Made by a program: the position numbers and the translations under genes. This document shows positions 9,227-61,420 of a DNA stretch of 64,000 nt, piece by piece. Source of the DNA: a virus; the IMG/VR virus record IMGVR_UViG_3300042934_000426, positions 1 to 64,000 of that record; one strand, written 5' to 3'. How positions within the stretch are numbered: the stretch's first letter is position 1; each line of letters opens with the position of its first letter. The notes below the pieces were generated by a model. The model was not told where the DNA came from. It saw nothing but the letters and a program-made list of their open reading frames with translations, and did no database searches.

Positions 9227-9420
9227 AAATGGGAAATCGCTTATTACGTATCAACTCGTACTGAATACTCGACGTCACAGCACTTTATTTTTTTGAAAAA
9301 TATTTTTTTTATTTTTTTATTTTTTGGAGAAGAAAAAAATAAATTTTTTTCTTAAAAAAATTTTCGTGTGTCACCCCACTATACCGTACCAACTCGTACG
9401 TAATAGGCGATTTCCCATTT
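9227..9420. repeat. Paired-palindrome locus 1 (candidate origin or recombination site)
   Basis: 24-bp outer inverted repeats (9227-9250 and 9397-9420); cores TTATTACGTAT-CAACTC-GTACTGAATAC (9241-9268) and CTATACCGTAC-CAACTC-GTACGTAATAG (9379-9406) flank an A/T tract. Confidence 0.85.
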
Positions 9421-9449
9421 TCGCTCTTTGCTTTAGTACACTAAAGTTA

Positions 9450-9483: not shown

Positions 9484-9600
9484 GGGGGAGGGGTATACTG
9501 GTTGTTGTCTTTTTATAGAATGATACAATCGAAGGGGCTGTAAAAAGGAAAATAAAGGGGATTTTGGGGTATGACGCTCGGCTATACTTTAGTCATGGAC

Positions 9601-9790: not shown

Positions 9791-9866
9791 TCCATTATAG
9801 CCTTGTCTATATATTCTGTTAAATACAAATAAAAAAGCCCAGGGCATATGCCCCAGGCTTCGGAAG

Positions 9867-17536: not shown

Positions 17537-17617
17537 TGTGACCAGCTCCTTCGTTACTTTTAGTATAACCGATATTGAACAACTTTGAACAACGTAAATC
17601 CTGGAAAAGCCAACGCA

Positions 17618-20659: not shown

Positions 20660-20770
20660 CTGACCAGCTCCCTTGTAGTTGATACCCTTATTATACACAA
20701 CAATGAACAACTTTAAACAACGCAATAAATGGAAAAAGCCCGCAACCCCTGGGGGCTACGGGCTTCGGTG

Positions 20771-28541: not shown

Positions 28542-28720
28542 TATTCTCCCGTCCTTTCGATAACAGGTATGCCTACACCACTAAGATAAAGCTCTCTATC
28601 GCCCTTCCAATCGAAGCGGTGGATAGATTGTATTCTTAGTGTTCTGCCGTCTTCTAGTTGTATTTTGTGCCCTATTTCTACAGTAGACCATCTTATTTTC
28701 GCTTTGAATAGTTCTTCCAT
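28541..28720 (-). CDS. Small hypothetical protein (59 aa, not in the ORF track) flanked by 21-bp direct repeats
   Basis: MEELFKAKIRW...PVIERTGE*; TAATG-coupled at both ends. Confidence 0.6.
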   Translation of the reverse strand: MEELFKAKIRWSTVEIGHKIQLEDGRTLRIQSIHRFDWKGDRELYLSGVGIPVIERTGE

Positions 28721-30117
28721 TATTCTCCCGTCCTTTCGATTTTGATAGCTAAACGATACAAGTCTTCTTCGGTCACATCATAGAGCAAAGCTTCAATTAA
28801 TTGCTTCACCGAAGCCCCTGTAGCGTCCATTAGGTTTAATTCGAGCTTCTTTGGTGTTATACGCTTCGGAGGAACGACCACTTCTGCATTAGGTACACAT
28901 TCGGTATCTGATACCCTTAGCCATGTTTTTCTAAAGGCTTTTGCGTCTTCTTCGTCTACGTTTATTTTTAAGGTTTTTATTAGGGGTGTAGTCGGTAACT
29001 TTTCATGAAGCTCTTCGACGCTTATTCCTTTATCATGGGCTTCGATAGTCGCTTCAATGACCTCTTTCGCTATATCTTTCGTGACAATCGGTGTACGGAC
29101 AATTTGGGCTACGTCCTTCGTTACGGCTTTGTCGACCATTTCCTGAAGGTCTATTTTCCCCTTTTTTAACCGCTTGATTTGGCTCGTATACGTACGTACG
29201 GTACCAATGCTTGTCTGCAAGTGGTCAGCCAGTTCTCTTGGTTCCATCGTAGGGTAATGTTCCAGGGCATATCGTACTTTGTCTAACATCGTTTTTCCTT
29301 CTAATTGGATGGGTTTCATAGGGCTACCAGCTCCTTCGTTTTTCTCTATTTCACTTATATGGTAAACGGTGACGGGTGCTTCGTCGATGGATTCTTCTGC
29401 CTGTTCTTCCTGTGGTTTCTTTACAGCCTTAGGAAGCTTAAATATTCCTTCTCCATCAAATTCATGGGCTTCGATTAAACCCTTGGAAAGAGCCAGCTTC
29501 CGAACCTTTTTTCCGACCCGCTTCTCTAAACGGCTTATGTAGCTTTGGCTCAACCCTAATTGGTTGGATAGCTCTAGCTGGGTCAGTTTTCCTTCGTCTT
29601 CGGCTAGCATAAAGTTTTCGAAGATTCGAAATTCTCTATCGGTAAACTTTTCGCGGACAATACCAATTAGCTGACGTATCGTATCTCGTTTCTCTTGTCG
29701 TTCGATATCGTAGCTTGACTTGTCTGTCACCACATCAAGTAAGGTGAGGTCGTTACCATCGAAGTCTACGCTAATCTTGTCCTCTAATAGTGTCACATTT
29801 CGGTGTTTATTCTCCTTCCGAAGTACCATGAGAATTTCGTTGTTCATACAAGTACTAGCGTAGGTAGCAAACTTCCATCCTTTTGTCGGGTCGAACGTAT
29901 TAAAACCTTTCAATAATCCTATACTAGCTATCGAAACTAAATCGTCTTCAGGTAAGCCCGTATTACTGTAGTTTTTCACGATATGACGGGCTAACCCTAA
30001 GTTTTTTCTGAAAATGTTATTCTTAATGTCTTCTTTTCGCTCTAGGTTGGTTTCACTGTAGTAGTCTGCGAATAAGTCTTCGTTCTTCGTCTTTTTCAAG
30101 GTCTGAATACTTATCAC
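28720..30117 (-). CDS. SigE/SigK-like sporulation sigma factor with a ~200-aa C-terminal HTH extension
   Basis: EDDLVSIASIGLLKGFNTFDP..KFATYASTCMNNEILMVLR...DFDGNDLTLLDV; region 4 TQLELSNQLGLSQSYISRLEKR. Confidence 0.9.
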   Translation of the reverse strand: MISIQTLKKTKNEDLFADYYSETNLERKEDIKNNIFRKNLGLARHIVKNYSNTGLPEDDLVSIASIGLLKGFNTFDPTKGWKFATYASTCMNNEILMVLRKENKHRNVTLLEDKISVDFDGNDLTLLDVVTDKSSYDIERQEKRDTIRQLIGIVREKFTDREFRIFENFMLAEDEGKLTQLELSNQLGLSQSYISRLEKRVGKKVRKLALSKGLIEAHEFDGEGIFKLPKAVKKPQEEQAEESIDEAPVTVYHISEIEKNEGAGSPMKPIQLEGKTMLDKVRYALEHYPTMEPRELADHLQTSIGTVRTYTSQIKRLKKGKIDLQEMVDKAVTKDVAQIVRTPIVTKDIAKEVIEATIEAHDKGISVEELHEKLPTTPLIKTLKINVDEEDAKAFRKTWLRVSDTECVPNAEVVVPPKRITPKKLELNLMDATGASVKQLIEALLYDVTEEDLYRLAIKIERTGE

Positions 30118-31886: not shown

Positions 31887-33383
31887 TTACGCTCTCACCA
31901 CCCGATTCGTATGCTTGCAATGCGTACACTTCTTTGTATTTCCGTTGCCTAGCTTTTGGTACGTGTTTTGCTTCCCACAGTTCACACAGTCAATCGCCTT
32001 CTGATTGTCTTCGGTTAGGTATTCGGTCGCTTCCGTAGGCGCGTCGCCTTTGGCTAGAGCTAAGTCCATTCGAAGCTCCCCACCCGCTCCGAAAAGGTTA
32101 TCAGCGTTTAAAGAGGTGTCTTCGACTTCTTCGTCCGTTTCGATGGTGAAAGGGATGTCAGCTAGGAATTTCGTGTAGTCTAGCGCGCCCATTTCTACTA
32201 GGGTAATGAACCCGTTATAATCAATGCCCGCTGGTACTTTGCGGTTATCCACCACAACTTCCCCGTTATCGTCTTCGAAGACCCATTTGTTTTCTTCAGG
32301 TAGGGCTTCGACTGGCTTTACCGCTCTACCACCGTGTACTTTGCTCCAACAATGGTCGTAGAATTCACAGTAGGTTGGTTTGCTTGTCTTATGACCCCAG
32401 CTACACGGGAATCCGTCAGGCTTATCGGCACAGCGTTCAGGGAATAGTTGGGCGATAGTTGCCTGGTCGCCTTCGGCTTCCGCTTTTTCCAGCGCTTCTT
32501 TGATTGCCCATAGACGGCTGATTCGTGGTACAGCGCCTTCGATAGCTTCACCACCACCGAAGAATCGTTCGCTAGACACCATCACTCGAACGATATCACT
32601 CGCTGGCTTGCCGTGTAAGTCTTCTTCGAAGGTGTACTCTTCGCCTTCGTGCATATCCTTCCACACGATTTGAACTTCTACCGTGTCATTGTTGTCTTTG
32701 GATTCGATAAAGATAGAGCCATAAGGCGTATTGTGCATGTACATGTAGAACATGATTTGGTCGATATACCCGCCAATGTTGCTAACGTCACCTTTGTCCT
32801 TGATAGCCTTGAAGCCCCATGGGTTCATCGTCTTAATGTCTGCTACCATGGTAATCGGTACATAGTCTTCAGCGATATTTCCCTCTTCGTCGAAGATACC
32901 AATGCTATTTGCATAAGCTGGGTCTAGCTCTACGTCAATTTCCCATTGTTCGGTTTCTTCGTTGTACGTCGACCCTACCGTGACCATGTTTAACGCGTGA
33001 GCTCTAACGATATTCATATCAAGCAAGCCGTCATAATGACCCGCCCATTCCCACGGGAATTGAGCTAAGTATTCGTCATCCTTCGAAGACAGGCGTTCCT
33101 CCATGGAGATTAGGACACCCATTTGCTCCCAGGCTGTTTGGTATCGGTCATGAACAAAGTCCCCGTTTTCTAGCTGGCGAAGGTTCTGCGCTGACTTCGA
33201 TTGTTTCGGTAAGTTGTGAGCGAAAAATCCGTAAATGATTTTGCGGTCTTCCATTCCCATTTCCGAAGCTCGGAAGTAGTTCTTCGCTCCTGTGATTCCT
33301 TTCTTATCGGTGTATTGTGCTTTCACGTTTTCGTTGTGTTCCCGCTTTGCGACTTGGAAAACATCCATAGCTTTTGATAACAT
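31887..33383 (-). CDS. Cas4/RecB-like PD-(D/E)xK exonuclease with C-terminal zinc ribbon
   Basis: RASEMG, GDFVH, GHYDGL, ADIKT, QIMFYM, CEFYDHC; CVNC..CTHC. Confidence 0.75.
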   Translation of the reverse strand: MLSKAMDVFQVAKREHNENVKAQYTDKKGITGAKNYFRASEMGMEDRKIIYGFFAHNLPKQSKSAQNLRQLENGDFVHDRYQTAWEQMGVLISMEERLSSKDDEYLAQFPWEWAGHYDGLLDMNIVRAHALNMVTVGSTYNEETEQWEIDVELDPAYANSIGIFDEEGNIAEDYVPITMVADIKTMNPWGFKAIKDKGDVSNIGGYIDQIMFYMYMHNTPYGSIFIESKDNNDTVEVQIVWKDMHEGEEYTFEEDLHGKPASDIVRVMVSSERFFGGGEAIEGAVPRISRLWAIKEALEKAEAEGDQATIAQLFPERCADKPDGFPCSWGHKTSKPTYCEFYDHCWSKVHGGRAVKPVEALPEENKWVFEDDNGEVVVDNRKVPAGIDYNGFITLVEMGALDYTKFLADIPFTIETDEEVEDTSLNADNLFGAGGELRMDLALAKGDAPTEATEYLTEDNQKAIDCVNCGKQNTYQKLGNGNTKKCTHCKHTNRVVRA

Positions 33384-33610: not shown

Positions 33611-33753
33611 GTTTACCAGCTCCCTCTCTTTATTCCGTACGACTTGGTACGTTTTTAATGGTATCATTATGTTTTGCATTTGTCAACAACTTTATACAAG
33701 TGTGAACAAGTTAGTTTAAGGAAAAAGCGGGTGGTTAAACCCGCTTCGGAATA

Positions 33754-37121: not shown

Positions 37122-37634
37122 CTACCCCCTGATTAGTGTTTGATATTTAGCGAGCCCGATTCCCACGCTGTCCCATACGTGTGTAGGCTGTCGTTTAAGA
37201 AGCTCTTCAGCTTCGGGAAGTGTATGTTTCACATAATGCTTCACTTGCTCTTTATTCGCCCGCATAACCCCTAGCGCGAGTTTTTTCCATTCGCCATTCT
37301 CATAGACAGTGACTTCGTAGCCCATGCTACGCCCGACCATGCGAAGGTGCTCTGTCAACCATGCCATTTCTTTATAGGTCTTTCCGACGGCTTTTCCTTG
37401 TTCGGTAAAGTCCTCAATGACGACGTGTTCGGGCTTAATGACCGATATAAGCTGACGCATATTGCCTCCGATAATATCAATCCTCTGTCGAACATCCCCG
37501 TCTGCCTTCGAAGTTCGAATGACCCCGAAATGTCTTGTCATTCCTACGGTTTTCCCCTCATAAAGAATAGAGGCGTAGCCACAATTCTCGGTGCCTGGGT
37601 CGAAAGCTAGTATTCGATTCATTCGGTCTTTCAT
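37122..37634 (-). CDS. ruvC: Holliday junction resolvase RuvC
   Basis: ILAFDPG, VVIED, ANKEQV, DSVGIGL. Confidence 0.9.
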   Translation of the reverse strand: MKDRMNRILAFDPGTENCGYASILYEGKTVGMTRHFGVIRTSKADGDVRQRIDIIGGNMRQLISVIKPEHVVIEDFTEQGKAVGKTYKEMAWLTEHLRMVGRSMGYEVTVYENGEWKKLALGVMRANKEQVKHYVKHTLPEAEELLKRQPTHVWDSVGIGLAKYQTLIRG

Positions 37635-43519: not shown

Positions 43520-46120
43520 CTACCTCACTTCTATATTGGCTTTCTTAAAGAGCGGAATCATATAAGCTATGTCGTCATATGTGACGTCGGTTGCTTCTTT
43601 CTTCTCTTTCTTCGGCTTCACCCATGCTGTACCGTCAGCGTCCCAGCTTACATCTAAGGCATGTTGCCATATCTTACCGACGGCTGGTTCGGCTATGATA
43701 GGTAGAATTTCCGTAAAGCCTTCGAGCGGTGCTTCCATAACCTCTTTTATCCAGCGTGCTCCTTCCGAAGCGTATTCGATTGGACATTCAGCCTGGATTT
43801 CATCGTGGATTTGCATAACCTGTTTGATATACGGTGCTTCCTTGATGGAACGCTTCTTAATCTCCACCATGGCTCTTCGGATGATATCACTTGCTGACCC
43901 CTGAATAGGTGTGTTCATGGCTTTGTTTTCTGCGGACTTCCGAATAAACTCTTTCGGGTGATTAATGTCAGGAATCGGTCTTCGGTTTCCGAAGAGGGTT
44001 TCCACATATCCGTATTCTCTAGCGAAGCTGATTTGACTGTCCGCATACCCTCTAATACCTGGGTAGGTCGCCATGTAGTTGTTGATGAATACTTTCGCTT
44101 CGTCTTTGGTCATACCCATTTGTCGGTCTTTGGATAAGCCGAATTCGGTCATCCCATAGACGATTCCGAAGTTAACTTTTTTGGCACGATATCGATACGG
44201 CTTAAACTTACTCTTTACTTCGTCGATGGTGCATTGTAGCTTGAATACTTCTCTTGCCACTAGGCTATGAAGGTCAATGTTATCGATAAAGGCTTGAATC
44301 ATGTTCTTTTCCTGGGCGAACCAGGCGAGAACCTTTAGCTCAATTTGAGAATAGTCACATCCGATAAAAATGGTTTCTCCGCTCAATTTATGCGTGATAA
44401 TCATAATGTTCGGACGGGTAAAAATGTTCTGCTGGGTATAGTCAGCGGTTAGGTCATAGCTTGGTGCTTCGAAGACCCCTCGAATTCCCATCGGGTCGTT
44501 ATCGGGTCGTGGGATATTCTGCAAATTCGGCTTCTTCGAAGATAGTCGCCACGTACTAACAAGATTGAGCTGGGTGTGCAATTTATTGGTGTCTTTTCGG
44601 CAAAACGGAAGCATACCATTCACATAGGTACTAAGAATTTTGGTGTACTTCGAACGCTCCTTCAGTACTTTCATAAAGGCGCTGTCGCCTTCGTAGCTGT
44701 CGATTATGAGCTCCATATTGTCTTTCCCTGTTCCAGGTATTCCTGTCGTCTTCGAGCGCTCTACGCCCCTTGTATCGACTTGTAGGACGTGGAAGAATAG
44801 CCATGACTTATGCTGAGGACTTCCCCAGGAAAACGGCTTCGGTGTCTTGATTTCTAAGGCTACAGGGTCACCACGCCATTGACCCATTCCGTAAACCCCA
44901 GCGGGTACAATGACGTTACCGTGGTCGTCGACGCCCGCATGGTCTTTCGTAACCTCTCGTAAGGCTTCGTAGAGTTTTTGTTCGATACAGTCGTCTTCCC
45001 AATCTCCCGCTTCGATTTGCTCTTCGGTCATGGTTTCTCTTCCGTATAGCGCACGAAACGCTACCCGCTCCATATCCCGAAGCTTATCGGGATTCACCCG
45101 CCAACCCGCTAACTCAATTTCTCCCAGGGTCATCATAAACGGGACATTCAGCTCGAAGTACACGTCGTCTAAGCCTTCAGCCACTAGAAGCGGGTAACAC
45201 TTTAGATACACACCCAGCCCCCAATCACTGTCGGAACAGGCATAGTCAACGCTATGCTTATCGACGGGCAATTCGTTAAACGTGCGGTAGCGGGATTGTT
45301 TCTTCGTCTTCGGAAGTCCCTTTTTTGCCCCCGACTTGTAGTATTCGCCAGGGATAGGTTCTTCCCATTCGTGCTTTCCAACCGTTTGCTTAAAGGTTTT
45401 AATATTATCTACATGAATCAATCCATGCACCCATCCATCTTTGTCTGCTAATAGAGCTTTTGTGGCGGGCTTTAATCCGACTTCGGTTTCTCCTTCTGCT
45501 CCGACGGTTTCGGGTAAGGCTAGTTGCTTCACCATCACCAACGTACAAATGATTTTTCGGGTCAACGTCTTCGGGAACATATCAATGCCGTGTAATAAGC
45601 TCCATTGGTGCTCGGCTTTGATGTTATGGGCAATGACTAGGATTTCAGGGTCTTCGAGAAGAGGTTTTAAGAACTCTTGCATGATGAAGTCTGTTTCCCA
45701 ATTCGCTCCGTAGCTAGTATGGTTCATAGGGAAGTAAAACGCCTGACCGATTTCCCAGGCTACCGATACCCCTACGATTTCGTGGTCTTGCGGGTCTTGG
45801 GTGTCGTCTTCAGGGTCACCGTTTGTTTCATAGTCGAAGCTAATGATTTTCTTCTTTCGAATTTCCTGAGCTATGGTTCGAAGCTTCGGAAGGTCATTTT
45901 TTCCGACCGCATGATAGCCTCTTCCTGGTAGCTCTACATTTAGTATTTGCTGGACTTCAGCGGTGCTTTCTGCCTGAGCGATTCGTGCCTTCGCTTGCGG
46001 ACTTAACTTCGTTGGGGTCGTGGTTCTACTTGGTGCGATTACTCGCTTCGGCTCTTCCCTCTTCGGAAGTGCCTTTTTCTTTTGGCTTGCTACCTTCTCT
46101 TTGAGCTTCGCTAGGCTCAT
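43520..46120 (-). CDS. polA: Family A DNA polymerase with 3'-5' exonuclease
   Basis: FDYET, HNIKAE, RLSSKKPNLQNIP, DYSQIELK (A), RYRAKKVNFGIVYG (B), QIHDEI (C). Confidence 0.95.
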   Translation of the reverse strand: MSLAKLKEKVASQKKKALPKREEPKRVIAPSRTTTPTKLSPQAKARIAQAESTAEVQQILNVELPGRGYHAVGKNDLPKLRTIAQEIRKKKIISFDYETNGDPEDDTQDPQDHEIVGVSVAWEIGQAFYFPMNHTSYGANWETDFIMQEFLKPLLEDPEILVIAHNIKAEHQWSLLHGIDMFPKTLTRKIICTLVMVKQLALPETVGAEGETEVGLKPATKALLADKDGWVHGLIHVDNIKTFKQTVGKHEWEEPIPGEYYKSGAKKGLPKTKKQSRYRTFNELPVDKHSVDYACSDSDWGLGVYLKCYPLLVAEGLDDVYFELNVPFMMTLGEIELAGWRVNPDKLRDMERVAFRALYGRETMTEEQIEAGDWEDDCIEQKLYEALREVTKDHAGVDDHGNVIVPAGVYGMGQWRGDPVALEIKTPKPFSWGSPQHKSWLFFHVLQVDTRGVERSKTTGIPGTGKDNMELIIDSYEGDSAFMKVLKERSKYTKILSTYVNGMLPFCRKDTNKLHTQLNLVSTWRLSSKKPNLQNIPRPDNDPMGIRGVFEAPSYDLTADYTQQNIFTRPNIMIITHKLSGETIFIGCDYSQIELKVLAWFAQEKNMIQAFIDNIDLHSLVAREVFKLQCTIDEVKSKFKPYRYRAKKVNFGIVYGMTEFGLSKDRQMGMTKDEAKVFINNYMATYPGIRGYADSQISFAREYGYVETLFGNRRPIPDINHPKEFIRKSAENKAMNTPIQGSASDIIRRAMVEIKKRSIKEAPYIKQVMQIHDEIQAECPIEYASEGARWIKEVMEAPLEGFTEILPIIAEPAVGKIWQHALDVSWDADGTAWVKPKKEKKEATDVTYDDIAYMIPLFKKANIEVR

Positions 46121-46321
46121 AGTTACCAGCTCCTATCTAAAATACCGTGGGTGAATGTCCTTTGACTGAAGAGTGTGCAAATTGCCTTCGTCGTCTTCCC
46201 CTATGAATTCTTGCGGTTTATCAGGACTATACCCACTTGGATTTTGTTGCTTAACGGTTACCCATAGACCACTTGCTAATTCCAATCTTACACCGATTTT
46301 TGGTAGCATACTTACCAGCTC

Positions 46322-46699
46322 CTATTCACAAATTCTTTTTAGATACTTTTGGCGTATCTCTTGCATACGTGGCGTCGGAAGGTAGTATTTCTTGGATTCC
46401 CTTCGAATCAGTCCTAGTTGCTGAAATAACTTTAATCGCTTTAAGACGGGCTTATCACTGTAGCCTAGCTCGCCATAAACTTCCTGAGCGGTGACCACAC
46501 CCCTATCGACGATGAAGGTAATGAGCGCCTTCGTCAGGTCTTTGCTTCCCTGTTTATTCGTCGGGTGAAGCACGGTGCGAATGAATAACAGGTCTTGAAT
46601 GGAAAGGGGTTGAATGTCCTTATAGTGACCGCCCCGCTCTTTCCAGCGCTCGACGTCTTTTTGGTAATTCGATAGCACTTCTAACGCTTTTGCGTCCAA
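46322..46699 (-). CDS. Winged-helix DNA-binding protein (candidate binder of the 11-6-11 sites)
   Basis: VTAQEVYGELGYSDKPVLKRLKLFQQLGLIRR..KYYLPT wHTH; own promoter and operator. Confidence 0.7.
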   Translation of the reverse strand: MDAKALEVLSNYQKDVERWKERGGHYKDIQPLSIQDLLFIRTVLHPTNKQGSKDLTKALITFIVDRGVVTAQEVYGELGYSDKPVLKRLKLFQQLGLIRRESKKYYLPTPRMQEIRQKYLKRICE

Positions 46700-46720
46700 T
46701 GTTGACCAGCTCCTTTGTCA

Positions 46721-46781
46721 GAATTCAGTACGACTTCGTACGTTATATGATTAAGTATAACCAACTTTGAACAAATGTCAA
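46721..46781 (-). promoter_or_regulatory. SigA promoter with downstream 11-6-11 operator
   Basis: TTGACA-16-TATACT (46754-46781); ATATAACGTAC-GAAGTC-GTACTGAATTC (46721-46748). Confidence 0.75.
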
Positions 46782-46816
46782 CAAGAAAAGAAGCCCATTT
46801 TCAGGGCTTCCCTTGT

Positions 46817-47035
46817 CTAATTTTGACAGTCCTCACAATTTTCCCATATACCCACAATTTCTAAGGTTTCAGCGTCTACGTACAAGTAGACGTTGCTATC
46901 ACGCCAGCGCCATAGCCCTAAAACCTCATGGTCAGGATGACCTACTTCGTGCCCGCTCCAATCGCTTTCCCAAAAAAGGTCTTGGTGGTCGACCCACGTT
47001 TGACCGCACCCTGGGTGTATTTGTTTTTCTCCCAT
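46817..47035 (-). CDS. Small hypothetical protein
   Basis: GGAGCTGG RBS. Confidence 0.55.
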   Translation of the reverse strand: MGEKQIHPGCGQTWVDHQDLFWESDWSGHEVGHPDHEVLGLWRWRDSNVYLYVDAETLEIVGIWENCEDCQN

Positions 47036-47048
47036 ACTTACCAGCTCC

Positions 47049-50000
47049 TTATGTGTTCAAGTATTCAATGAACTTCGGTAACTTCCGAAGCCCATCACGG
47101 GTACGTTTAATCATGCTATGCTTCGTGAGGATTGCCAGTCGGTCATTCACCTGTTTTCGCTCGAATCCTAACATATCGATAATCTCGGCTGGCTTCAGAA
47201 TATCGTTCTTTCGGAAGAGCTCTAGGATTTCTTCCGATACGGCTACGTTCTCCCCGAAGTCCATGTTTTCAAGGGTTTGGCGAATCTCTTCCGCTTCTTC
47301 TTCGGTCAGCTCGGATTCTTCTTTGCTCTTGGCACTATAAATGTCTAGGCGGGCGTTTTGGTTGTCGTAAATCACTTGGATAAAGTCAGCTACATACTCC
47401 ACATGGTCAGGATTCACAATCACCTTCTCATGCGCTTCGTCGGTTGAATGAAGCAAGCTTGCTAGACTAATAGCCATACGTGCAATCTTCTTCCGAAGGT
47501 CAGACGGCTCTAAAAGCGGAATGTCCTGAGCGTAGCCGTACTTCTCGCCTAACTCGTCAGCCTTCGCTAGAATCTTACGCATAGCGGGCTTCGTAATCTC
47601 AATGTGTTCAGGTTTGCGTGACCACGCCCATAGAATCGAATCCCGAAGAGCTTCGGAAGTGATTAGTTGAACTTCGGGCTTGTCGTATTCCTGATTGAGT
47701 ACCGCCTTCGTGACGTCACCTGACTGAAGGAATATCGCCATATCCAAACGTCTGATATCTGCTGGTGAAGCGAACAACGGTTTTAAGGCTTCTACCCCAT
47801 GCGTGAAGCTCGATAGCGTTCTTGCCTTCGCTGGGTTCGTTAAAAGGATTAATCGGACACGGGCGTTGGTTTCGGTGTTGACCGTACGGTCTACTCGAAG
47901 TACCCCTGTGGTTCTCGCTTCGGTAATCTTACCAAAGTCTTCAGGGTGTAATTCAGAAAATTCGTCGATTGCGATTAGCTTGCGGTCACTAAGCGGGTAT
48001 TTCCCCCAGGTGATGAACCATCGTTCACCCATTTGCTCTAGGCGGTAGACTAATCCTGTACGGGACGTTCCTTCCCCTGACGTCATATTTCCTAGCCCCG
48101 CGAATTCCATAATGTTGCTAACAAGCTGGGTCTTCGCTTGCCCTGAATCTCCGACGAATACCGTTTCCAGCCAGCCACGCTTTTCGAGCTGACCCTGGAA
48201 ATAATAGTTTAAAGCGGAATGGTAGGTTAATAGTACCGCCAGGTGTGGCTCGAAGCGTTCTCGTACCAGGGTCACGTTGTCTACCAGGTCGCCTACTAAC
48301 AGGCTCACTCTATCGTCAATCGTTTCCCCTTCTTGCACCTTGAATACATCTAATCGTTGTCTAGCCTCTTCGGTCATTTCAAACTTTGATATGCTATCCT
48401 CTAACGGCTCTTGCTTTTGGCTCAGAATGGTCGCCATAGCGTTTTTCGGGTGACTATAGACATAACCCTCTAGGTCATAGTGTGTATTCGCCTGTACGTC
48501 ATTTCCGACGGCATACACCTTACGGGTCACGTACTCATTTCCTTCTCCGTCTACTTCCTTCGAAGACCCGTCTTCCCCTTTGACCGTCTTTACACGGTCA
48601 GCCATGGGCACCACTAGGAGCTCGGTGATATTTTCGTGTTCCAGCACTTCGGATTTAACCTTCTTACAGGAAGCTCCTGAATGGTGGAAGAGTATTCCTT
48701 TTAGCTGGGTATCATTTTGGTTGGTGGCTTCGATTAGGAATCGTTCATTTTCATGGAATTCCCGCTCGTATAGCCCACCGAAGTCGTGCATAATACAATC
48801 TTTGTCACAGAACGGTTCATGGCTACATACATAGCGAACCTTCTTTGGCACAATGTAAGGCGTATCCATTTTCCCTGATACCAGGGCGCTAAACGCTACT
48901 TTCTTTCCTGTGAATTCGGCATTAGCTGTCTTCGCTAGGTGCATGTGCTCGGCTGGCTCTTGGTCAATGGCGAAGTCTTCGTGGGCTGGGCATGCACGCC
49001 CCGCACATGGAACGGTTTCATAGTCACGTCCCTTACGCTCTCCTGATAGGCTTCGAATGAAGGCACAACCGAAGTGGTACTTTTGGTCTTCGTACACCGT
49101 TTTAATACACCCAATCGTAGACGCTTGCACTTCCGAAGGAGAAGAGCTAGTGAACGACTTCGGAATCTTTTTGACCCAATCGCACAAAATCTTGACCGTT
49201 TCGCTCATAGGGTAACCAGCGTCTTTATAGTACGAAGCTAGCGCCATTGTCGCTTTGTTACGGTCGCCTGATTTGAGGATTCCACGCTCGATGATAAATT
49301 GAACACATACAGGTACACCTTCCATTTGCTTTAGTACGGTGTCCTTTAGGGTTACACGGTCTGTATAGAGCTTATCAACTTCTTCCCATGCTTCGACTTT
49401 ACTCGCATACCATTCGTGAATGTCTTCGTTCAAATTGTACTCACATTGGTCAGGCGGGTAGAGGTCAGGACGTGGTGACTTTGCCAATCCATTAATGATG
49501 TTCCGAAGGTCGCTTTTCACTTCGTCATGGGTCAGTTCTACTTTGAATAGCCCGCTCTTATAGTGGATGGAATTCACCAGGCGAAGCATGCGACGGGTTC
49601 CGTAAATGGAAGAGGAATCTAAGCTTTTTAGTCCTAGCTGGGTTTCTAAGGTAACCGCGATAAACTTGATAATTCGGTTTAGCTTTTTATGTGGCTGGAT
49701 TCCCATAATCGTCGGATTCGCAATCACATGGAAGCCCTTCGAACCGCTGAAGTACACCCTGATTTCGTCTTCAGTTACCTGAAATCGCTCCGTGAAGTAA
49801 TGAAGAATCTTTACGACGTCACTTCGGCTCATTTCCAGGTTTTTAATCCATACAAAATCAGTACACGCCTGGTCACTGTCCACATAGTCATTAATCGATT
49901 GATTCGTGTCTTTTGATAACGGAATACCCATTTCGTAATTGCGAAGGTGTAATAATAGGTTTTCAGGTAATAGTCCGATTAATTCGTCCGCCTTTACCGC

Positions 50001-50318
50001 TCCCATTTCGACCAGTCCTGGGGCTTCCTGAATAACACCTTCTTTTACTTCCGAAGTAAGACTTCGTGAGCTATCAATATCGAAGAATAACGGCATATAA
50101 AGGAGCTCGGCTTCCCCATCAGGTCTTACCTTGTTACGAAAAGTTTGAATGGTGGAAAATACGTTGTAATTGCCGTATTGTTGCCTGAAGTCTTCCAGCT
50201 TATCCGCTTCGGTGCGGTTCCATTTCGTGTTCACGCCCGTTTGCGGGTTCTTGTGGTAGACGTCCACATAGAGGAAGTCCTCTAGTTTGATTTCGCTTTT
50301 CTTTTTCCCTTTTGCCAT
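47049..50318 (-). CDS. AEP primase / PriCT / MCM-like helicase fusion
   Basis: FFDID and FSGSKGFH (AEP), GDRNKATMALASYY (PriCT), VGDSGQAKTQ, IAIDEF, LLTNP, DIRRLD (MCM-type AAA+). Confidence 0.85.
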   Translation of the reverse strand: MAKGKKKSEIKLEDFLYVDVYHKNPQTGVNTKWNRTEADKLEDFRQQYGNYNVFSTIQTFRNKVRPDGEAELLYMPLFFDIDSSRSLTSEVKEGVIQEAPGLVEMGAVKADELIGLLPENLLLHLRNYEMGIPLSKDTNQSINDYVDSDQACTDFVWIKNLEMSRSDVVKILHYFTERFQVTEDEIRVYFSGSKGFHVIANPTIMGIQPHKKLNRIIKFIAVTLETQLGLKSLDSSSIYGTRRMLRLVNSIHYKSGLFKVELTHDEVKSDLRNIINGLAKSPRPDLYPPDQCEYNLNEDIHEWYASKVEAWEEVDKLYTDRVTLKDTVLKQMEGVPVCVQFIIERGILKSGDRNKATMALASYYKDAGYPMSETVKILCDWVKKIPKSFTSSSPSEVQASTIGCIKTVYEDQKYHFGCAFIRSLSGERKGRDYETVPCAGRACPAHEDFAIDQEPAEHMHLAKTANAEFTGKKVAFSALVSGKMDTPYIVPKKVRYVCSHEPFCDKDCIMHDFGGLYEREFHENERFLIEATNQNDTQLKGILFHHSGASCKKVKSEVLEHENITELLVVPMADRVKTVKGEDGSSKEVDGEGNEYVTRKVYAVGNDVQANTHYDLEGYVYSHPKNAMATILSQKQEPLEDSISKFEMTEEARQRLDVFKVQEGETIDDRVSLLVGDLVDNVTLVRERFEPHLAVLLTYHSALNYYFQGQLEKRGWLETVFVGDSGQAKTQLVSNIMEFAGLGNMTSGEGTSRTGLVYRLEQMGERWFITWGKYPLSDRKLIAIDEFSELHPEDFGKITEARTTGVLRVDRTVNTETNARVRLILLTNPAKARTLSSFTHGVEALKPLFASPADIRRLDMAIFLQSGDVTKAVLNQEYDKPEVQLITSEALRDSILWAWSRKPEHIEITKPAMRKILAKADELGEKYGYAQDIPLLEPSDLRKKIARMAISLASLLHSTDEAHEKVIVNPDHVEYVADFIQVIYDNQNARLDIYSAKSKEESELTEEEAEEIRQTLENMDFGENVAVSEEILELFRKNDILKPAEIIDMLGFERKQVNDRLAILTKHSMIKRTRDGLRKLPKFIEYLNT

Positions 50319-50484: not shown

Positions 50485-51135
50485 CTATTCAGCTTCTACT
50501 ACGCCTACGTTTTCAAATTCTACACGGCTATAACGAATTTTCTTGTCGTTACGGTTTTCCTGACGGCTGATTGTCATTTTCGTATAGATTTGGTTGATGG
50601 CGAAGCCCGCTTTGGCTTGTGCTTTTACGTAGTCGATAAAGTTCATAGCGGAAGCGGTCGGAAGCGTCATGATGTACTCAGTCGGCTCACCTTCTTCGCC
50701 TTCTTCGAACCAGCGAATTTCGAATTTCAATTTATATCGGTCGTCTAATTTCGTGTCGCTATTGTTGTACTTATTGTTGTCTTCGTCAAACCATTGATAG
50801 AAGCGTTTTCCGAAGCTTACAACCATTATAATCTCCGTAGCTGTTTCATTGCTTGCTTTGTAAAGGAAGTTTGTTCCGTCGATGGATACGTAATTACCGC
50901 CACCTGTGATATCGTCGATATTATCCAGGATTCCAGCGTTCATAACCGCCATTTGATTCGGGTTGTTGTTTACGGCTGGTGTTGCAGATTGGTTACGTGG
51001 TGCTGGTGTTTGGTTTGTCATGTGATTACCCCCGTTTTGAACTGTTTGCTGATTTGCATGTTGGTCTACGTTACCCGCTGGTACTGAGGTTGTTTGGGCT
51101 TTTGGTGCTCCCCCACGATTTGCTCTTAATGCCAT
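50485..51135 (-). CDS. Putative single-stranded DNA-binding protein
   Basis: Directly upstream of primase-helicase; beta-rich C-terminal part; RBS AGAAAGGTGG at the 51135 start. Confidence 0.5.
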   Translation of the reverse strand: MALRANRGGAPKAQTTSVPAGNVDQHANQQTVQNGGNHMTNQTPAPRNQSATPAVNNNPNQMAVMNAGILDNIDDITGGGNYVSIDGTNFLYKASNETATEIIMVVSFGKRFYQWFDEDNNKYNNSDTKLDDRYKLKFEIRWFEEGEEGEPTEYIMTLPTASAMNFIDYVKAQAKAGFAINQIYTKMTISRQENRNDKKIRYSRVEFENVGVVEAE

Positions 51136-51149
51136 AATGTTTTCCACCT

Positions 51150-51617
51150 TTCTGTCAGCTATCGGCTGAACACTGTAATATGATTTGCGGTAGCCTTCGA
51201 TTTGGTCTACCAAAAGTGATTCGAAGACGCTCGGCACAGTTCCACGTTTAGCTCACTCATTTCGTCAATCCCGCTTAGTGTCTATGCAAGTATCTATTGC
51301 GGGAGAAAGTGAGCGTGTACTGTCTTGCCTTTACGAATTTCCTACCCCTAGGTCGTTCGTTTGCGTGGGGTACTTCGAATCAGCTTTTGCTAGACCGAAG
51401 GGAGCGTCGGTGTAAATCCACCGATACTTTGTTGGTTTGACCCCGCCTATTTCGGTCTACCGAAAAGGGTTCATTACCTGGACTGATTACCAGCTTTGGT
51501 GGGATTTACGGTGTTTACCGTTCAGCCGTACTTTCGCCCGCTTAAAAGGGGTACTATTCAGCCATACTAAGAATTGACCTAACCCGTTATGAACGCCTTT
51601 CGCTAGACCGAAGCGTG
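51150..51617 (-). ncRNA. Candidate large structured RNA (two tandem domains)
   Basis: Stems 51589-51612/51451-51474 and 51373-51399/51201-51226 share TTCGGTCTAGCnAAAG...CTTTTnGGTAGACCnAA; many internal and long-range complementarities. Confidence 0.6.
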
Positions 51618-51896
51618 TTAAGCTTCAAGTCCCTGGCTCTTTAAGAAGTTAGCCAGCCCGCTTTGCGGGAAACGACGTACTTTATGTTTTCCTTCAGGAT
51701 TAATCACCGTATAGGGAATGTTGAAGTCTTCTAGCACCCGATAAAAGGTGTTTCGGCTTTGGCAAGGGAAGCCCTTGCTACTAAGGTAATCCATGGCTTG
51801 TTGCATTGTCAACATTTTATCGTCTACTAGGATTGCTTTTGCTTGCTTTGCTTTCGCCACTTGCCTTCCGCTCCTTTCTTGTTTGAAGTTGTTCAC
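51618..51896 (-). CDS. Excisionase/AlpA-like HTH DNA-binding protein
   Basis: MLTMQQAMDYL....SRNTFYR.....IP.......VRRF...L..FL. Confidence 0.7.
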   Translation of the reverse strand: MNNFKQERSGRQVAKAKQAKAILVDDKMLTMQQAMDYLSSKGFPCQSRNTFYRVLEDFNIPYTVINPEGKHKVRRFPQSGLANFLKSQGLEA

Positions 51897-52094
51897 CGTT
51901 GTTTAACTTTATATTTCTCATTATAGAGGTGTCCTATACGTTTGTCAACAACTTTGAACAAAATTATTTTATCGGTTTAGAGAATGTTTTATGACACGAA
52001 TAGCAAACGTAATCTATTTCTGTATCACCTGGAAAAATAACCAAAAAGTCTGTGTCTGTACTTCCACAGTTAGGGCAACCTACTTTATTAGCTG

Positions 52095-52676: not shown

Positions 52677-54461
52677 CTATATCAGGTCTAGTAAGTCTTG
52701 TGGTGAGCTGAAGAGCTTCTTCATCACTACCTCGTCTTCGTCTACGATGGCTTTGAAGAGCTCCCGCTTGTTCTCTAGGATTTCGAGCTTCTTCTCTTCG
52801 TAGCTTCCTTCGGTAATCATGTTAATAGCGGTGACGGCTGACTTCACCCCGTTACGGTGGGCACGGGCATAAATTTGTTCCATCTTTTGCGGGTTGAATA
52901 GCTGGTCATAGCATATCACATATGACCCCATAGAAAGGTCTAGCCCGTAGTTACCAGCGGTGGTCATCAGCACACATTGAATGTCCCCGTTTTGGAATTC
53001 ATTCTGAATCCGTCCTGTTTCGGTCGCTTTCAGTCCACCTTTGATGTAGCCAATTTGCTCCTTCCGAAGTCCTAACTTTTCATTGCTGGTTAGCCATGTG
53101 TAAAGTATGTCTGTCATTTCCTTGTATTGGCTGAACAGGATAAACTTGTGGCGGTGTGGGTCAAGGTCAACAATAATATCGCCTAGGGCGTTCATTTTTC
53201 CGCTTTCTTCAGGTAAGTTCGAATTTTCCATCACCTTCCGAAGTAGGGCTGGTGAATCGCATACTTGCTGAAGGCGGGTAATTTGCGCTAGTGCTTCCAG
53301 GTAGGAAAACTCGCTTCCTTGCTCTTTCGCGATTTCTAGGATTCCGTCTTTTACTTGCTTATACAGTCGTTGTTGTTCCTTCGTCATTTTAACCGAATAG
53401 TTAACCACGGATAGTGGTGGTAGGTCAGGTAGTGCGTCCGCTTTCGACTTCCGAAGCATGATAGGTTCTAGGCGCTTCGTCAGCTCACTAATCATTTGGG
53501 GCTTTGGTGCAACAGGTTTTCCAAAGAAGTCCATTTCTACATAGCGGTCTAGGAACTTGTAGTAAGTACCTAAGATACCAGGTCGGCAAAAATCGGTTAG
53601 TGTCCATAGTTCTTGAATGTTATTTTCAAGCGGTGTTCCTGTTCCCAGGATTTTACGACCCGCTGGTTTCAGCTTCTTAATCAAGTTCTTCGTCGTTTGT
53701 GCCTTCGGGTTCTTAATACGATGGGCTTCGTCTAGGATAACCAACCAGCGTCCATCTACAGGTGGGATAATGTCCATATCCCGAAGGAAGAGCTCATAGT
53801 TCATAATCGTCACATCAGCCCCATATTCGTATTGCTGATATTGCACTTCACGAAGCTTTGCACCTGTCAGCTTCTCCTTCGTACCGTCTTCCCATTCGAC
53901 CGTTTCCCGCTTGTCACCGTCAATCACGACATATTCCAGCGACGTCCATTTTTTGACTTCCTTTTCCCAGGTGGAATACTTCAAAGGTGACGGGCATACC
54001 ACCAATAGATAATCGACTAATCCTTTGTTCTTCCAATCGACGAAGCTCGCTAGCCCCGTGAGTGATTTTCCTAATCCCATATCGAAGGCTAGGATAGCAC
54101 CCTCTCCGTCTTCGAGCGTATCCAGGAACGCCTTCCCTACCGCCTGGTACGGGTAAAGCTCTCCTTTTAATCCTTTGATTTTTCCGCTTACTTTCTTTTC
54201 GTCAATGCTTTTCACGGCTACCGCTTTTTGCTGACGGTCTTTTAAGTCCTTGAATACTTGCTTGACAGCTGGTGCAATTTCTAACGAAGGCATAATACGC
54301 AAAGCGTCTTCGGTTGATTCTAATGGGATTTCCCAGCGTTTCGCTGAACGCTCCCAGGCTGACCCAGGGATTGCACGAATCAAGTCTTTATAGCTGAATG
54401 TCTTTCCAGCGAAATAAAGTGTTTTGCTACTGCCTTCTGATAACTGTAAACTGATTGTCAT
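52677..54461 (-). CDS. SNF2-family helicase
   Basis: LYPYQ, DMGLGKS, ILDEAH, TGTPLEN, FSQY, GLDL, QIYARAHR. Confidence 0.93.
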   Translation of the reverse strand: MTISLQLSEGSSKTLYFAGKTFSYKDLIRAIPGSAWERSAKRWEIPLESTEDALRIMPSLEIAPAVKQVFKDLKDRQQKAVAVKSIDEKKVSGKIKGLKGELYPYQAVGKAFLDTLEDGEGAILAFDMGLGKSLTGLASFVDWKNKGLVDYLLVVCPSPLKYSTWEKEVKKWTSLEYVVIDGDKRETVEWEDGTKEKLTGAKLREVQYQQYEYGADVTIMNYELFLRDMDIIPPVDGRWLVILDEAHRIKNPKAQTTKNLIKKLKPAGRKILGTGTPLENNIQELWTLTDFCRPGILGTYYKFLDRYVEMDFFGKPVAPKPQMISELTKRLEPIMLRKSKADALPDLPPLSVVNYSVKMTKEQQRLYKQVKDGILEIAKEQGSEFSYLEALAQITRLQQVCDSPALLRKVMENSNLPEESGKMNALGDIIVDLDPHRHKFILFSQYKEMTDILYTWLTSNEKLGLRKEQIGYIKGGLKATETGRIQNEFQNGDIQCVLMTTAGNYGLDLSMGSYVICYDQLFNPQKMEQIYARAHRNGVKSAVTAINMITEGSYEEKKLEILENKRELFKAIVDEDEVVMKKLFSSPQDLLDLI

Positions 54462-58478: not shown

Positions 58479-58811
58479 GTTCAGCCAGCTCCTTGTATTT
58501 TATTTTAGGGGGCTTTCGCCCCTTCTAAGTGTAGTATACGCTTCCGAAGTATTTTTTATTCCTTCGTTGCATTTGCTTTAATGAAAGACATAGAACCTTG
58601 TACAACCAATAACGTAGGTAAATGTGACGTGCTACCCTTCGGTTCACGAATAGCCGTTTCAAGTTCTTTTTCTAATTGTTTCCATGCCTTTTCGTAATCG
58701 ACCATATACCCCCACCCCCTCAACTCCGTTTTTGGTTCTAAAATTAGTATACAACAATGAACAACAATTTACAAGCGTAAACATTTACCACCTCCTTTTC
58801 AGGCAAAAAAT

Positions 58812-59000
58812 TTTGGGAAATCGCCTATTACGTATCAACTCGTACGTAATACTCAATGACACACGCTATAGTGTCTATCTGAAAAATTTTTTATTTTTCT
58901 CTCCGCTGATAAAAAATAAAAAAATAAATTTTTGAAAATCAAAACCCTTGTGACACCACTACTACGTACCAACTCGTACGTAATAGAAGGTTTCCCATTT
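58812..59000. repeat. Paired-palindrome locus 2 (candidate origin or recombination site)
   Basis: Cores CTATTACGTAT-CAACTC-GTACGTAATAC (58825-58852) and CTACTACGTAC-CAACTC-GTACGTAATAG (58959-58986); outer GGGAAA/TTTCCC arms; A/T tract between. Confidence 0.85.
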
Positions 59001-61066: not shown

Positions 61067-61420
61067 TTACTTTAACGCGTCTTTCAATGCCTTACCAGGT
61101 TTGAACGCTGGATATTTACCACCAGCAATTTCAAGTTCTTCGCCTGTTTGTGGATTGCGTCCCTTTCTTGCTTGACGCTCACGCACTTCGTACACGCCAT
61201 GACCTATGTAGCGTACTTTATCACCATTTTGAAGAGCACCTAAGATAAGGGACTTCTCAGCGTCTAAGATTTTACCGATAACGCCCTGAGATACTTCGAC
61301 AGGGTGGTCACCCGCTTTTAGTTCTTCCTGAATGGCTTTGACCATATCCTCTTTACCGAAAATCGTTCCTTTTGTTTCGACTACTTCTACAGGTGCTTCT
61401 ACAGCTTTTTTCTTTGCCAT
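61067..61420 (-). CDS. hup: HU-like DNA-binding protein
   Basis: GDKV...[23 protein letters not shown]...[11 protein letters not shown]. Confidence 0.93.

What the first reader, a model, noticed from the sequence alone, without database searches (positions are those of the whole stretch)
46322..46781. A fifth 11-6-11 site is the operator of the wHTH gene between primase-helicase and polymerase, nominating it as the binder
Seen: on the minus strand, TATAACGTAC-GAAGTC-GTACTGAATT (within 46721-46748) closely matches core A of locus 1 (TATTACGTAT-CAACTC-GTACTGAATA). It lies between a TTGACA-16-TATACT promoter and the RBS of a 125-aa winged-helix protein. Established: plasmid and phage initiators are often wHTH proteins that autorepress through the same site they bind at the origin. 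Inference: this protein is an autoregulated origin-binding or helicase-loading factor for the MCM-like primase-helicase, which favours the dual-origin model over recombination.
Basis: partly seen in the sequence, partly recalled or inferred. Interest (0 to 1): 0.8.

Follow-up and report, generated by a model that had tools for sequence, protein, structure and literature searches.

The report
Conserved operator of a phage wHTH gene
A 26-bp palindrome sits on the predicted transcription start of a small winged-helix gene in a ~105-kb soil phage and in its relatives, and the same palindrome flanks A/T-rich cores elsewhere in these genomes, so one protein probably reads all the sites; which protein that is remains unproven.

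Summary
At 46722-46747 (minus strand) a GTAC-N6-GTAC palindrome lies between an 11/12 TTGACA-16-TATACT promoter and the RBS/TTG start of a 125-aa protein. That protein folds confidently (pLDDT 94) as a MarR/ArsR/PadR-like winged helix.

- **More sites than reported.** A third paired locus lies outside the window (89.2-89.4 kb).
- **Conserved module.** Terminator, promoter, operator, RBS and wHTH gene recur in 8 lineages (47-91% protein identity). In each 17-20-kb locus of a relative this is the only match.
- **Conserved paired loci.** Every related complete genome carries two loci of paired sites about 135-170 bp apart around an A/T-rich core.
- **Co-variation.** In a distant relative (G008) the arms change at the paired loci and at a single site upstream of the wHTH-containing operon alike, so one phage factor reads both classes of site.
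- **The binder is not identified.** I put the autoregulating wHTH at about 0.5. The primase-helicase's own C-terminal winged helix, a SaPI Rep-like precedent, is about 0.27.
- **Origin versus recombination.** Recombination is disfavoured, because no recombinase gene was found and spacer orientation is not conserved. Origin function is plausible but untested.

This scan flagged the paired loci before on this genome, and similar palindrome/AT-core layouts on other DNA.

The parts
46783..46811 (-). Intrinsic terminator (GGAAGCCC / GGGCUUCU hairpin plus U-tract). It insulates the wHTH promoter from the primase-helicase/orf72 transcript.
   Evidence: dG -18.3, z -4.1. Equivalent hairpin and T-tract lie upstream of all 8 aligned homologue promoters.
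46754..46781 (-). Sigma70-type promoter TTGACA-16-TATACT. Its spacer carries the phage-wide TTGTTCAAAGTTG element.
   Evidence: (11/12).
46722..46747 (-). 26-bp palindromic operator (core GTACGA-AG-TCGTAC). It spans roughly +1 to +26 of the predicted transcript.
   Evidence: 0 mismatches to the pattern; 0.03 expected. Position conserved in 8 lineages.
46710..46716 (-). Shine-Dalgarno AAAGGAG, part of the clade's recurrent GGAGCTGG ribosome-binding motif.
46322..46699 (-). 125-aa winged-helix protein with a TTG start. Recognition helix is residues 82-94 (SDKPVLKRLK...) and the wing is 98-108 (RRESKKYY).
   Evidence: 35 homologues; invariant S81 D82 P84 R88 E101 Y106; pLDDT 94.
43520..46309 (-). 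Downstream genes of the same predicted operon: orf58 (46133-46309) and family-A DNA polymerase (43520-46120).
   Evidence: The gaps are only 12 nt each and no terminator was found.
33631..33656 (-). Sixth site, a second operator. It lies 1 nt after the -10 of TTGACA(33686-33681)-17-TACCAT(33663-33658) and before the RBS of a 75-aa acidic ORF. That ORF heads an operon with a Cas4-like exonuclease, a 3D-domain hydrolase and a sigma factor.
   Evidence: Relatives G001 and G003 keep the promoter and a GTACGAAC half-site.
9242..9405 (.). Paired locus 1: two sites 138 bp apart around an A/T-tract core.
58826..58985 (.). Paired locus 2: two sites 134 bp apart. It sits about 8.5 kb upstream of the primase-helicase gene and about 50 bp upstream of a TTGTAA-17-TATACT promoter.
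47091..47306 (-). C-terminal winged-helix segment (residues about 1005-1076) of the 1089-aa AEP-primase/MCM-like helicase. This is the rival candidate binder.
   Evidence: (phrog_2440).

Best explanation
The palindrome at 46722-46747 is an operator that covers the predicted transcription start of the promoter driving the wHTH gene, orf58 and the DNA polymerase gene. The 125-aa protein is a MarR/ArsR-like winged-helix protein. It most likely binds this site as a symmetric dimer. Two recognition helices would sit in successive major grooves on the GTAC half-sites, which are 10 bp apart, and the wings would contact the A/T flanks. Binding would shut off its own promoter, giving negative autoregulation. 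The same protein would then also occupy the second operator at 33.6 kb (exonuclease/sigma-factor operon) and the paired sites that flank A/T-rich cores at 9.3, 58.9 and 89.3 kb.

Shown: the site, the promoter and terminator context, the fold, the conservation of the module across lineages, and the fact that promoter sites and paired sites form one site class that changes together across lineages.

Inferred: that this protein is the binder, that it acts as a dimer, that it represses, and what it does at the paired loci. My split for the paired loci is origin marking or helicase recruitment about 45%, and looped transcriptional control of the adjacent promoters about 35%.
For: - Site and context.
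- Confident wHTH model with N- and C-terminal helices, as in dimeric MarR/ArsR/PadR regulators.
- Homologues in L001, G001, G002, G003, L008, L009 and L010 keep terminator, promoter, GTAC-N6-(G/A)TAC and RBS. The palindrome starts 11-13 nt after the -10 and is the only match in each 17-20-kb locus held (L008-L010 are contigs of 1.4-2.5 kb).
- Recognition helix and wing are invariant or nearly so across 35 homologues, matching the near-invariant half-site.
- A second operator sits at an equivalent promoter position.
- In G008 the arms change to AAGGCTAC..GTAGCCTT at both paired loci and at a single site heading the operon that contains the wHTH gene. The wHTH recognition helix also changes there, to HDVPVRKRFD.
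- G004 keeps the wHTH DNA-reading residues, yet its only GTAC-type sites are the paired loci.
- phBC6A51 and vB_BboS-125 have a BcMCM-type helicase but no wHTH homologue and no such pairs.
Against: - No binding data exist.
- The primase-helicase carries its own C-terminal winged helix. Its recognition helix is also conserved within the GTAC lineages and also changes in G007 and G008, so co-variation does not separate the two candidates.
- SaPI Rep and PriRep5 proteins set a direct precedent for a helicase-borne winged helix reading sites on both sides of an A/T-rich core (PMC9371898).
- In G004, G007 and G008 the wHTH gene has no operator of its own.
- Site 6 is a full palindrome only in G000.
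Confidence: 0.5

Rival explanations
1. The binder is the primase-helicase itself. Its C-terminal winged helix reads the palindromes, as in self-loading initiator-helicases (SaPI Rep/PriRep5, P4 alpha). The paired loci are origins where it loads. The sites at the two promoters let the initiator throttle the polymerase and exonuclease operons. The 125-aa wHTH is merely one of the regulated genes, with other targets of its own.
For: - AEP primase plus MCM-type AAA+ plus a C-terminal WH in one chain.
- The layout of site, A/T core, site matches SaPI origins, where WH-read repeats flank an AT-rich centre in opposite orientation (PMC9371898).
- The WH recognition helix is basic and conserved in GTAC lineages, changes in G007 and G008, and is acidic and divergent in phBC6A51 and vB_BboS-125, which lack the motif.
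- In G008 the single site heads an operon that also contains the primase-helicase gene.
Against: - Each site is one two-fold palindrome with half-sites 10 bp apart. That is the signature of a small dimeric regulator, not of arrays of short direct iterons for a hexamer.
- In 8 lineages the operator sits after a terminator, downstream of the helicase gene and directly in front of the wHTH gene. That is the classical autoregulation layout.
- The paired locus is about 8.5 kb from the helicase gene, not adjacent as in SaPIs.
Confidence: 0.27
2. A different phage or host DNA-binding protein reads the palindromes. The wHTH gene is only a target and has unrelated targets of its own.
For: Much of the genome is unannotated. 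The genome also encodes sigma factors and an HU/IHF-like protein. A second conserved element, phased TTGTT repeats, lies in the same promoters and needs its own reader.
Against: - The site arms differ between phage lineages (G007, G008), which argues against a conserved host factor.
- No other sequence-specific HTH was found among the 27 neighbouring proteins scanned.
- An operator directly in front of a DNA-binding gene in 8 lineages is most simply autoregulation.
Confidence: 0.15
3. The palindrome does not act as a protein operator. It would be either a 5'-UTR RNA hairpin (GUACG-AAGU-CGUAC) that affects mRNA stability or translation, or a dif/lox-like 11-6-11 recombination core.
For: The site is predicted to be transcribed and can form a 5-bp stem (reading). 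The 11-6-11 format resembles Xer and tyrosine-recombinase cores.
Against: - The same sequence recurs in both orientations at the paired loci, where its orientation varies between pairs and lineages.
- No tyrosine or serine recombinase gene was found in the complete genome, although the controls rang.
- The 'spacer' is itself semi-palindromic and is conserved between phages.
- No Rfam match.
Confidence: 0.05

Closest known systems
Iteron-plasmid initiators RepE (F), RepA (P1, pPS10) and pi (R6K)
   Same: A winged-helix protein binds an inverted-repeat operator at its own promoter to autorepress, and binds related sites at the origin (PMC4980987, plus general knowledge).
   Different: Those proteins have two WH domains (about 250-350 aa), and monomers bind direct-repeat iterons. 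Here there is one WH in 125 aa, no Rep_3 match, identical palindromes at promoters and paired loci, and a separate MCM-like primase-helicase.
SaPI Rep / PriRep5 self-loading helicases with their ori; phage P4 alpha with ori/crr
   Same: A primase fused to, or next to, an AAA+ helicase of the pre-sensor II insert (MCM-type) clade, with a C-terminal winged helix. The ori has an A/T-rich centre with protein sites on both sides in opposite orientation (PMC9371898). P4 has two separated cis regions (general knowledge).
   Different: Their sites are 6-12 short direct iterons next to the rep gene, and no separate wHTH is needed. Here each side is a single 26-bp palindrome, there are 2-3 loci per genome 30-50 kb apart, and a stand-alone wHTH gene carries the same site as its operator.
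Archaeal Orc1/Cdc6 with ORB-DUE-ORB origins
   Same: Inverted initiator sites flank an A/T-rich unwinding element, and an MCM-type helicase is loaded there (general knowledge).
   Different: Orc1/Cdc6 is an AAA+ plus WH protein of about 400 aa. The 125-aa protein has no AAA+ module.
MarR/ArsR/PadR-type autoregulated repressors, and centromere binders TubR and AspA
   Same: Best fold matches, Z 9-10. They are small proteins with helices on both sides of the wHTH, and many bind palindromic operators overlapping their own promoter. TubR and AspA additionally bind repeated cis sites elsewhere on the replicon.
   Different: No Pfam membership at E<=0.01. No ligand-sensing or partition partner gene is evident. 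The gene context is between primase-helicase and PolA.
BcMCM of Bacillus cereus prophage phBC6A51
   Same: The neighbouring 1089-aa protein is 38% identical over 85% of its length. The primase/MCM fusion was characterised biochemically (PMC2715239, PMC3273815).
   Different: phBC6A51 has no wHTH gene between MCM and PolA and no GTAC-N6-GTAC pairs. PMC3273815 describes no origin or loader for BcMCM.

Membership tests
MarR/ArsR/PadR-like winged-helix transcription regulators | Helix-turn-helix plus beta-hairpin wing, with extra N- and C-terminal helices | tested here: met
   AF2 model, pLDDT 94: H50-66, H71-78, H82-94, strands 98-101 and 105-108, H110-124, plus H3-22 and H34-44. VIA Z 9-10.4 to BpsR, MarR, PagR, TubR, CzrA, QsrR and YodB, all tied. 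Foldseek best E 7e-3.
MarR/ArsR/PadR-like winged-helix transcription regulators | Sequence membership in a curated family (PF01047, PF01022, PF03551, PF13412 and the like) | tested here: not met
   No Pfam or PHROG family at E<=0.01. Only 2 of 36 homologue clusters carry a precomputed PF13412 hit. The PDB profile search gives only E~0.1 wHTH hits.
MarR/ArsR/PadR-like winged-helix transcription regulators | Palindromic operator overlapping its own promoter | tested here: met
   Site at about +1 to +26 of the TTGACA-16-TATACT promoter, conserved in 8 lineages. Binding itself was not tested.
MarR/ArsR/PadR-like winged-helix transcription regulators | Functional homodimer | not testable with these tools
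   Needs SEC-MALS, crosslinking or a solved structure.
Iteron-plasmid Rep initiators (Rep_3: RepE, RepA, pi) | Two tandem WH domains (WH1 and WH2) and a Rep_3 signature | tested here: not met
   125 aa with a single WH. No Pfam hit.
Orc1/Cdc6 initiators | AAA+ ATPase module followed by a WH domain | tested here: not met
   No AAA+ domain. The whole protein is one WH domain with flanking helices.
Self-loading initiator-helicases (SaPI Rep/PriRep5, P4 alpha), considered for the neighbouring 1089-aa protein | Primase plus MCM-clade/SF3-like AAA+ helicase plus C-terminal WH | tested here: met
   PF00493 MCM 1.6e-13. PHROG primase, helicase and phrog_2440 at residues 1005-1076. Weak WH profile hits to CodY and TFIIE.
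Self-loading initiator-helicases (SaPI Rep/PriRep5, P4 alpha), considered for the neighbouring 1089-aa protein | The WH specifically binds repeats flanking an A/T-rich ori core | not testable with these tools
   The architecture is present. Co-variation is ambiguous. The structure model of the C-terminus was unusable.
Tyrosine-recombinase core sites (dif/lox-like 11-6-11) | A cognate recombinase encoded by the element | tested here: not met
   PF00589 and PF00239 give no match in the complete 104,950-bp genome. Controls rang in 14 and 12 of 14 genomes. Host Xer proteins cannot be excluded.
Tyrosine-recombinase core sites (dif/lox-like 11-6-11) | An asymmetric spacer whose relative orientation is functionally fixed | tested here: not met
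   Spacer orientation within pairs is direct in G000 loci 1 and 2 and in G004 locus a. It is inverted in G000 locus 3, G001, G002, G003 and G004 locus b. The spacer is semi-palindromic (S-A-n-n-T-S).

The most novel reading that the evidence does not exclude
The stand-alone 125-aa winged-helix protein is the origin-recognition factor of a clade of ~100-kb soil phages. It would mark ORB-DUE-ORB-like paired palindromes and recruit the AEP-primase/MCM-like helicase to them. That is an archaeal-style split between origin binder and MCM helicase, found in a bacterial virus. Through the same site it would also autoregulate and gate the DNA-polymerase and exonuclease/sigma-factor operons. Two or three such origins per genome would bracket the early and replication region.
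Probability: 0.22. Interest if true: 0.75.

Novelty: new variant of a known kind. Interest (0 to 1): 0.52.

Why it matters
The BcMCM paper read here (PMC3273815) describes no origin and no loader for BcMCM-type primase-helicases, the bacterial-virus relatives of archaeal and eukaryotic MCM. This phage clade offers a defined 26-bp site, two candidate readers and a conserved site / A-T core / site locus. The question of who brings an MCM-like helicase to DNA in a phage therefore becomes testable with a handful of EMSAs and reporter constructs. If the answer is instead ordinary autoregulation plus looped promoter control, the result is a new, unannotated family of phage wHTH repressors with a known operator.

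Tried and rejected
- **Distant-homologue loci.** The alignment of distant homologues was too diverse for the search for related loci. Single-protein scans for P0039, P0040 and P0043 found nothing. The genome-contig scan found no prophage copy.
- **Known phages.** blastn and tblastn of the region and of the wHTH against the phage collection gave no match.
- **Homodimer job** (complex prediction): no verdict. It is not used as evidence either way.
- **Primase-helicase C-terminus structure**: pLDDT 41, unusable, so no fold comparison with SaPI Rep or P4 alpha WH domains was possible.
- **Fold searches of the wHTH.** Rep, Orc1/Cdc6 or RTP did not appear among the top rows. Absence from those lists excludes nothing.
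- **GC skew** follows the coding strand and gives no origin signal.
- **Sequencing runs.** One soil-metagenome DNA run holds the phage, kept as contigs, and no RNA holder is listed. Read laying was not run because contigs cannot show ends or starts.
- **De novo paired-palindrome finder.** It recovered the known pairs only in G000, G002 and G003, so its blank for phBC6A51 and vB_BboS-125 is weak. The phBC6A51 gap upstream of the MCM operon looks coding, not origin-like.
- **Co-variation between half-site and recognition helix.** Both WH candidates change in G007 and G008, so this is uninformative.
- **Pair-pattern scan of IMG/VR**. About 13 of the 80 listed loci are true pairs by PWM. All belong to the same phage clade, so no lineage with pairs but without the wHTH could be identified.
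- **Rfam:** no family matches in 45900-47200.

Full report
**Setting.** The window is the first 64 kb of a complete 104,950-bp virus record with direct terminal repeats, 45% G+C. The one sequencing run that holds it is a soil metagenome. Nearly all genes run on the minus strand.

The finding lies between a 1089-aa AEP-primase/MCM-like helicase (47049-50318) and a family-A DNA polymerase (43520-46120). The helicase matches PF00493 at 1.6e-13 and phrog_18685 at 5e-230. It is 38% identical to the BcMCM of prophage phBC6A51.

**Observation.** Reading the minus strand gives this order:
- a strong hairpin terminator at 46811-46789 with a U-tract
- TTGACA at 46781-46776, a 16-nt spacer, and TATACT at 46759-46754 (11/12, the only sigma70-like hit in 1.2 kb)
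- six bases, then the 26-bp site at 46747-46722
- AAAGGAG at 46716-46710, then a TTG start at 46699

The 26-bp pattern occurs at six places in the window against 0.03 expected.

It begins one base after the -10 of a TTGACA-17-TACCAT promoter and ends just before the RBS of a 75-aa acidic ORF. That ORF heads an operon with a Cas4-like exonuclease, a 3D-domain hydrolase and a 465-aa sigma factor.

The whole genome holds eight sites. Three are paired loci (9242/9380, 58826/58960, 89196/89330), and two are single promoter sites.

The nominal 6-bp spacer is semi-palindromic (S-A-n-n-T-S). Site 5 has a perfect GTACGA-AG-TCGTAC core. The element is therefore better described as a continuous 22-26-bp palindrome than as 11-6-11.

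**The protein.** No Pfam or PHROG family matches. Thirty-six close homologues exist in metagenomes and 22 more distant ones in the representative library. None is in the INPHARED phage collection.

The alignment shows an invariant or nearly invariant recognition helix (S81 D82 K83 P84 V85 L86 R88 K90) and wing (R99 R100 E101 K103 K104 Y106).

AlphaFold2 gives pLDDT 94. The model is a canonical wHTH with two N-terminal helices and one C-terminal helix. The nearest solved folds are MarR, ArsR/SmtB, PadR, HxlR-type regulators and the centromere binders TubR and AspA. All are tied at Z 9-10. Foldseek is weak. The ESM Atlas gives IclR/MarR/BlaI/TrmB-like neighbours. The protein is thus a regulator-type winged helix.

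**Conservation of the module.** I recovered loci for homologues from IMG/VR and JGI metagenomes. In eight lineages (G000, L001, G001, G002, G003, L008, L009, L010; 47-91% identity to the window's protein) the same order recurs: terminator hairpin and T-tract, -35, a conserved TTGTTCAAAGTTG spacer, -10, then 11-13 nt, GTAC-N6-(G/A)TAC, RBS and gene. In each 17-20-kb locus of a relative (L001, L003, L004, L006) that site is the only match to the core pattern; L008-L010 are contigs of 1.4-2.5 kb.

Three lineages have the gene fused into the upstream operon, without a promoter or site of its own: G004/L007, G007/L032 and G008/L070.

Synteny of primase-helicase, wHTH and PolA holds in all seven genomes.

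**Paired loci in relatives.** A PWM scan of the full genomes finds two paired loci in each of G001-G004, 42-52 kb apart. Sites within a pair are 133-172 bp apart around a roughly 70-80% A+T core. G007 has one pair, with GTAAG half-sites; that record is 83% complete. A pattern scan of IMG/VR adds further contigs of the same clade.

The orientation of the slightly asymmetric centre varies between pairs and between lineages. In G000, one site of locus 3 is the exact reverse complement of its locus-2 counterpart. This fits gene conversion between palindromic arms and argues against a directional function.

**Co-variation.** G008 has 60% G+C, a wHTH 37% identical and a primase-helicase 47% identical. 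It has no GTAC sites above control level. It does have two loci 45 kb apart with the same site / A-T core / site layout (about 140 bp). Their arms are AAGGCTAC..GTAGCCTT and the centre CAACTC/CAGTTG is retained. It also has one single site of this new type at 37354-37375, in the intergenic gap that heads the operon 299-aa / primase-helicase / 108-aa / wHTH / PolA.

Promoter-type and paired-type sites therefore change together. One phage-encoded factor reads both.

This does not say which factor. The wHTH recognition helix changes (SDKPVLKRLK to HDVPVRKRFD). The helix of the primase-helicase C-terminal WH changes as well (ERKQVNDRL to ERQEVTQVI), and both also differ in G007.

**Who binds.**

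For the wHTH:
- An operator directly in front of a small DNA-binding gene, behind a terminator, in eight lineages.
- Two-fold symmetric sites with half-sites one helical turn apart, which is the geometry of dimeric MarR/ArsR-type proteins (inference from established structures).
- Conserved DNA-reading residues in G004, whose only GTAC-type sites are the paired loci.
- Absence of both the gene and the motif from BcMCM-type phages phBC6A51 and vB_BboS-125.

For the primase-helicase:
- SaPI Rep and PriRep5 are self-loading helicases of the pre-sensor II insert (MCM-type) AAA+ clade. Their C-terminal winged helix reads repeats on both sides of an A/T-rich ori centre (PMC9371898).
- The WH here is basic and conserved. 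In phBC6A51 and vB_BboS-125 it is acidic and divergent.

I could not break the tie. My odds are wHTH 0.5, primase-helicase WH 0.27, another factor 0.15, and a non-operator role 0.05.

**What the paired loci are.** Recombination is disfavoured. There is no tyrosine or serine recombinase in a complete genome. Spacer orientation is not conserved. The same site also serves as a promoter operator.

An origin role is plausible, given the layout, the position upstream of the replication module and the conservation, with SaPI, P4 and archaeal parallels. It is untested. GC skew is uninformative.

Each locus also lies about 50-180 bp upstream of a promoter of the TTGTTCA class, and the phage encodes an HU/IHF-like protein. 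Looped transcriptional control of those promoters is therefore a live alternative. I put origin at about 45%, transcriptional control at about 35% and other roles at 20%.

**Comparison and novelty.** The logic resembles RepE, RepA and pi, which autorepress at an inverted repeat and bind related sites at the origin (PMC4980987). It also resembles ParR- and TubR-type autoregulated cis-site binders. The protein is not a member of Rep_3 or Orc1/Cdc6, because it has a single 125-aa WH and no AAA+ module. The helicase next door fits the SaPI Rep/P4 alpha class by architecture.

PMC3273815 describes no origin or loader for BcMCM. I rate this a new variant of a known kind. It is real, conserved and experimentally tractable, but its key claim, the identity of the binder and origin function, is unproven.

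**Earlier scan notes.** The scan had already noted the paired loci on this genome (e1-6026583, e1-6026602). It had also noted palindrome/AT-core layouts read by helicase WH domains on other DNA (e1-3159753, e1-137126). The latter raised my weight on the helicase rival and led me to PMC9371898, which I read myself.

Noticed in passing
G000 89196-89355 (outside the window); compare window 58826-58985: There is a third paired locus. Its right half is nearly identical to locus 2 but inverted in the genome. One of its 26-bp sites is the exact reverse complement of the locus-2 counterpart within otherwise collinear flanks. This suggests gene conversion between palindromic arms.
   Followed up: partly
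window 46761-46785, 33696-33710, 58751-58765, 17579-17593, 20697-20721, 51888-51962 and others: A second recurrent promoter element, GTTGTTCAnnnTTGT (phased TTGTT/AAGTTGT repeats about 10-11 bp apart), gives 24 matches against 7.5 expected. It lies inside the -35/-10 spacer of the wHTH promoter and upstream of the -35 of the exonuclease-operon promoter. It is conserved in all relatives. Its reader is unknown.
   Followed up: partly
window-wide; for example 46707-46714, 33614-33621, 46313-46320: The ribosome-binding motif is GGAGCTGG rather than GGAGGTG. G000 has 42 copies on the coding strand, 35 of them 3-8 nt before a start codon, and no GGAGGTGA. The motif is also frequent in G001, G003 and G004. 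It is either a systematic mismatch to a canonical anti-SD or a hint about the host's 16S tail.
   Followed up: partly
window 61067-61420 (-): An HU/IHF-like protein (PF00216, 3e-22) is encoded about 2 kb upstream of paired locus 2. It could bend the A/T-rich cores.
   Followed up: no
window 28720-30117 (-) and 31887-33383 (-): A 465-aa sigma-70-family factor and a 498-aa Cas4-domain exonuclease lie in the operon headed by the sixth site. The exonuclease and its promoter are conserved in all relatives.
   Followed up: partly
G008 54100-54300 and 99150-99300 (L073, L075): Next to each G008 paired locus lies a (GATA/TATC)n-like microsatellite island of 16-21% G+C in a 60% G+C genome. It is preceded by a conserved TTCTG[GA]CACAC box that recalls the GTGACAC boxes inside the G000-clade loci.
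   Followed up: no
window 50485-51237 (-): The 250-aa protein just upstream of the primase-helicase has a Q/N-rich, probably disordered N-terminal half. Its C-terminal domain resembles viral Pam3_Gp34-like clusters. Proteins of unknown function and similar size precede the MCM gene in phBC6A51, vB_BboS-125 and G008. It may be a replication accessory protein.
   Followed up: partly
window 9420-9835: About 400 nt between paired locus 1 and a strong terminator (9861-9834) lack a long ORF. Their function is unknown.
   Followed up: no
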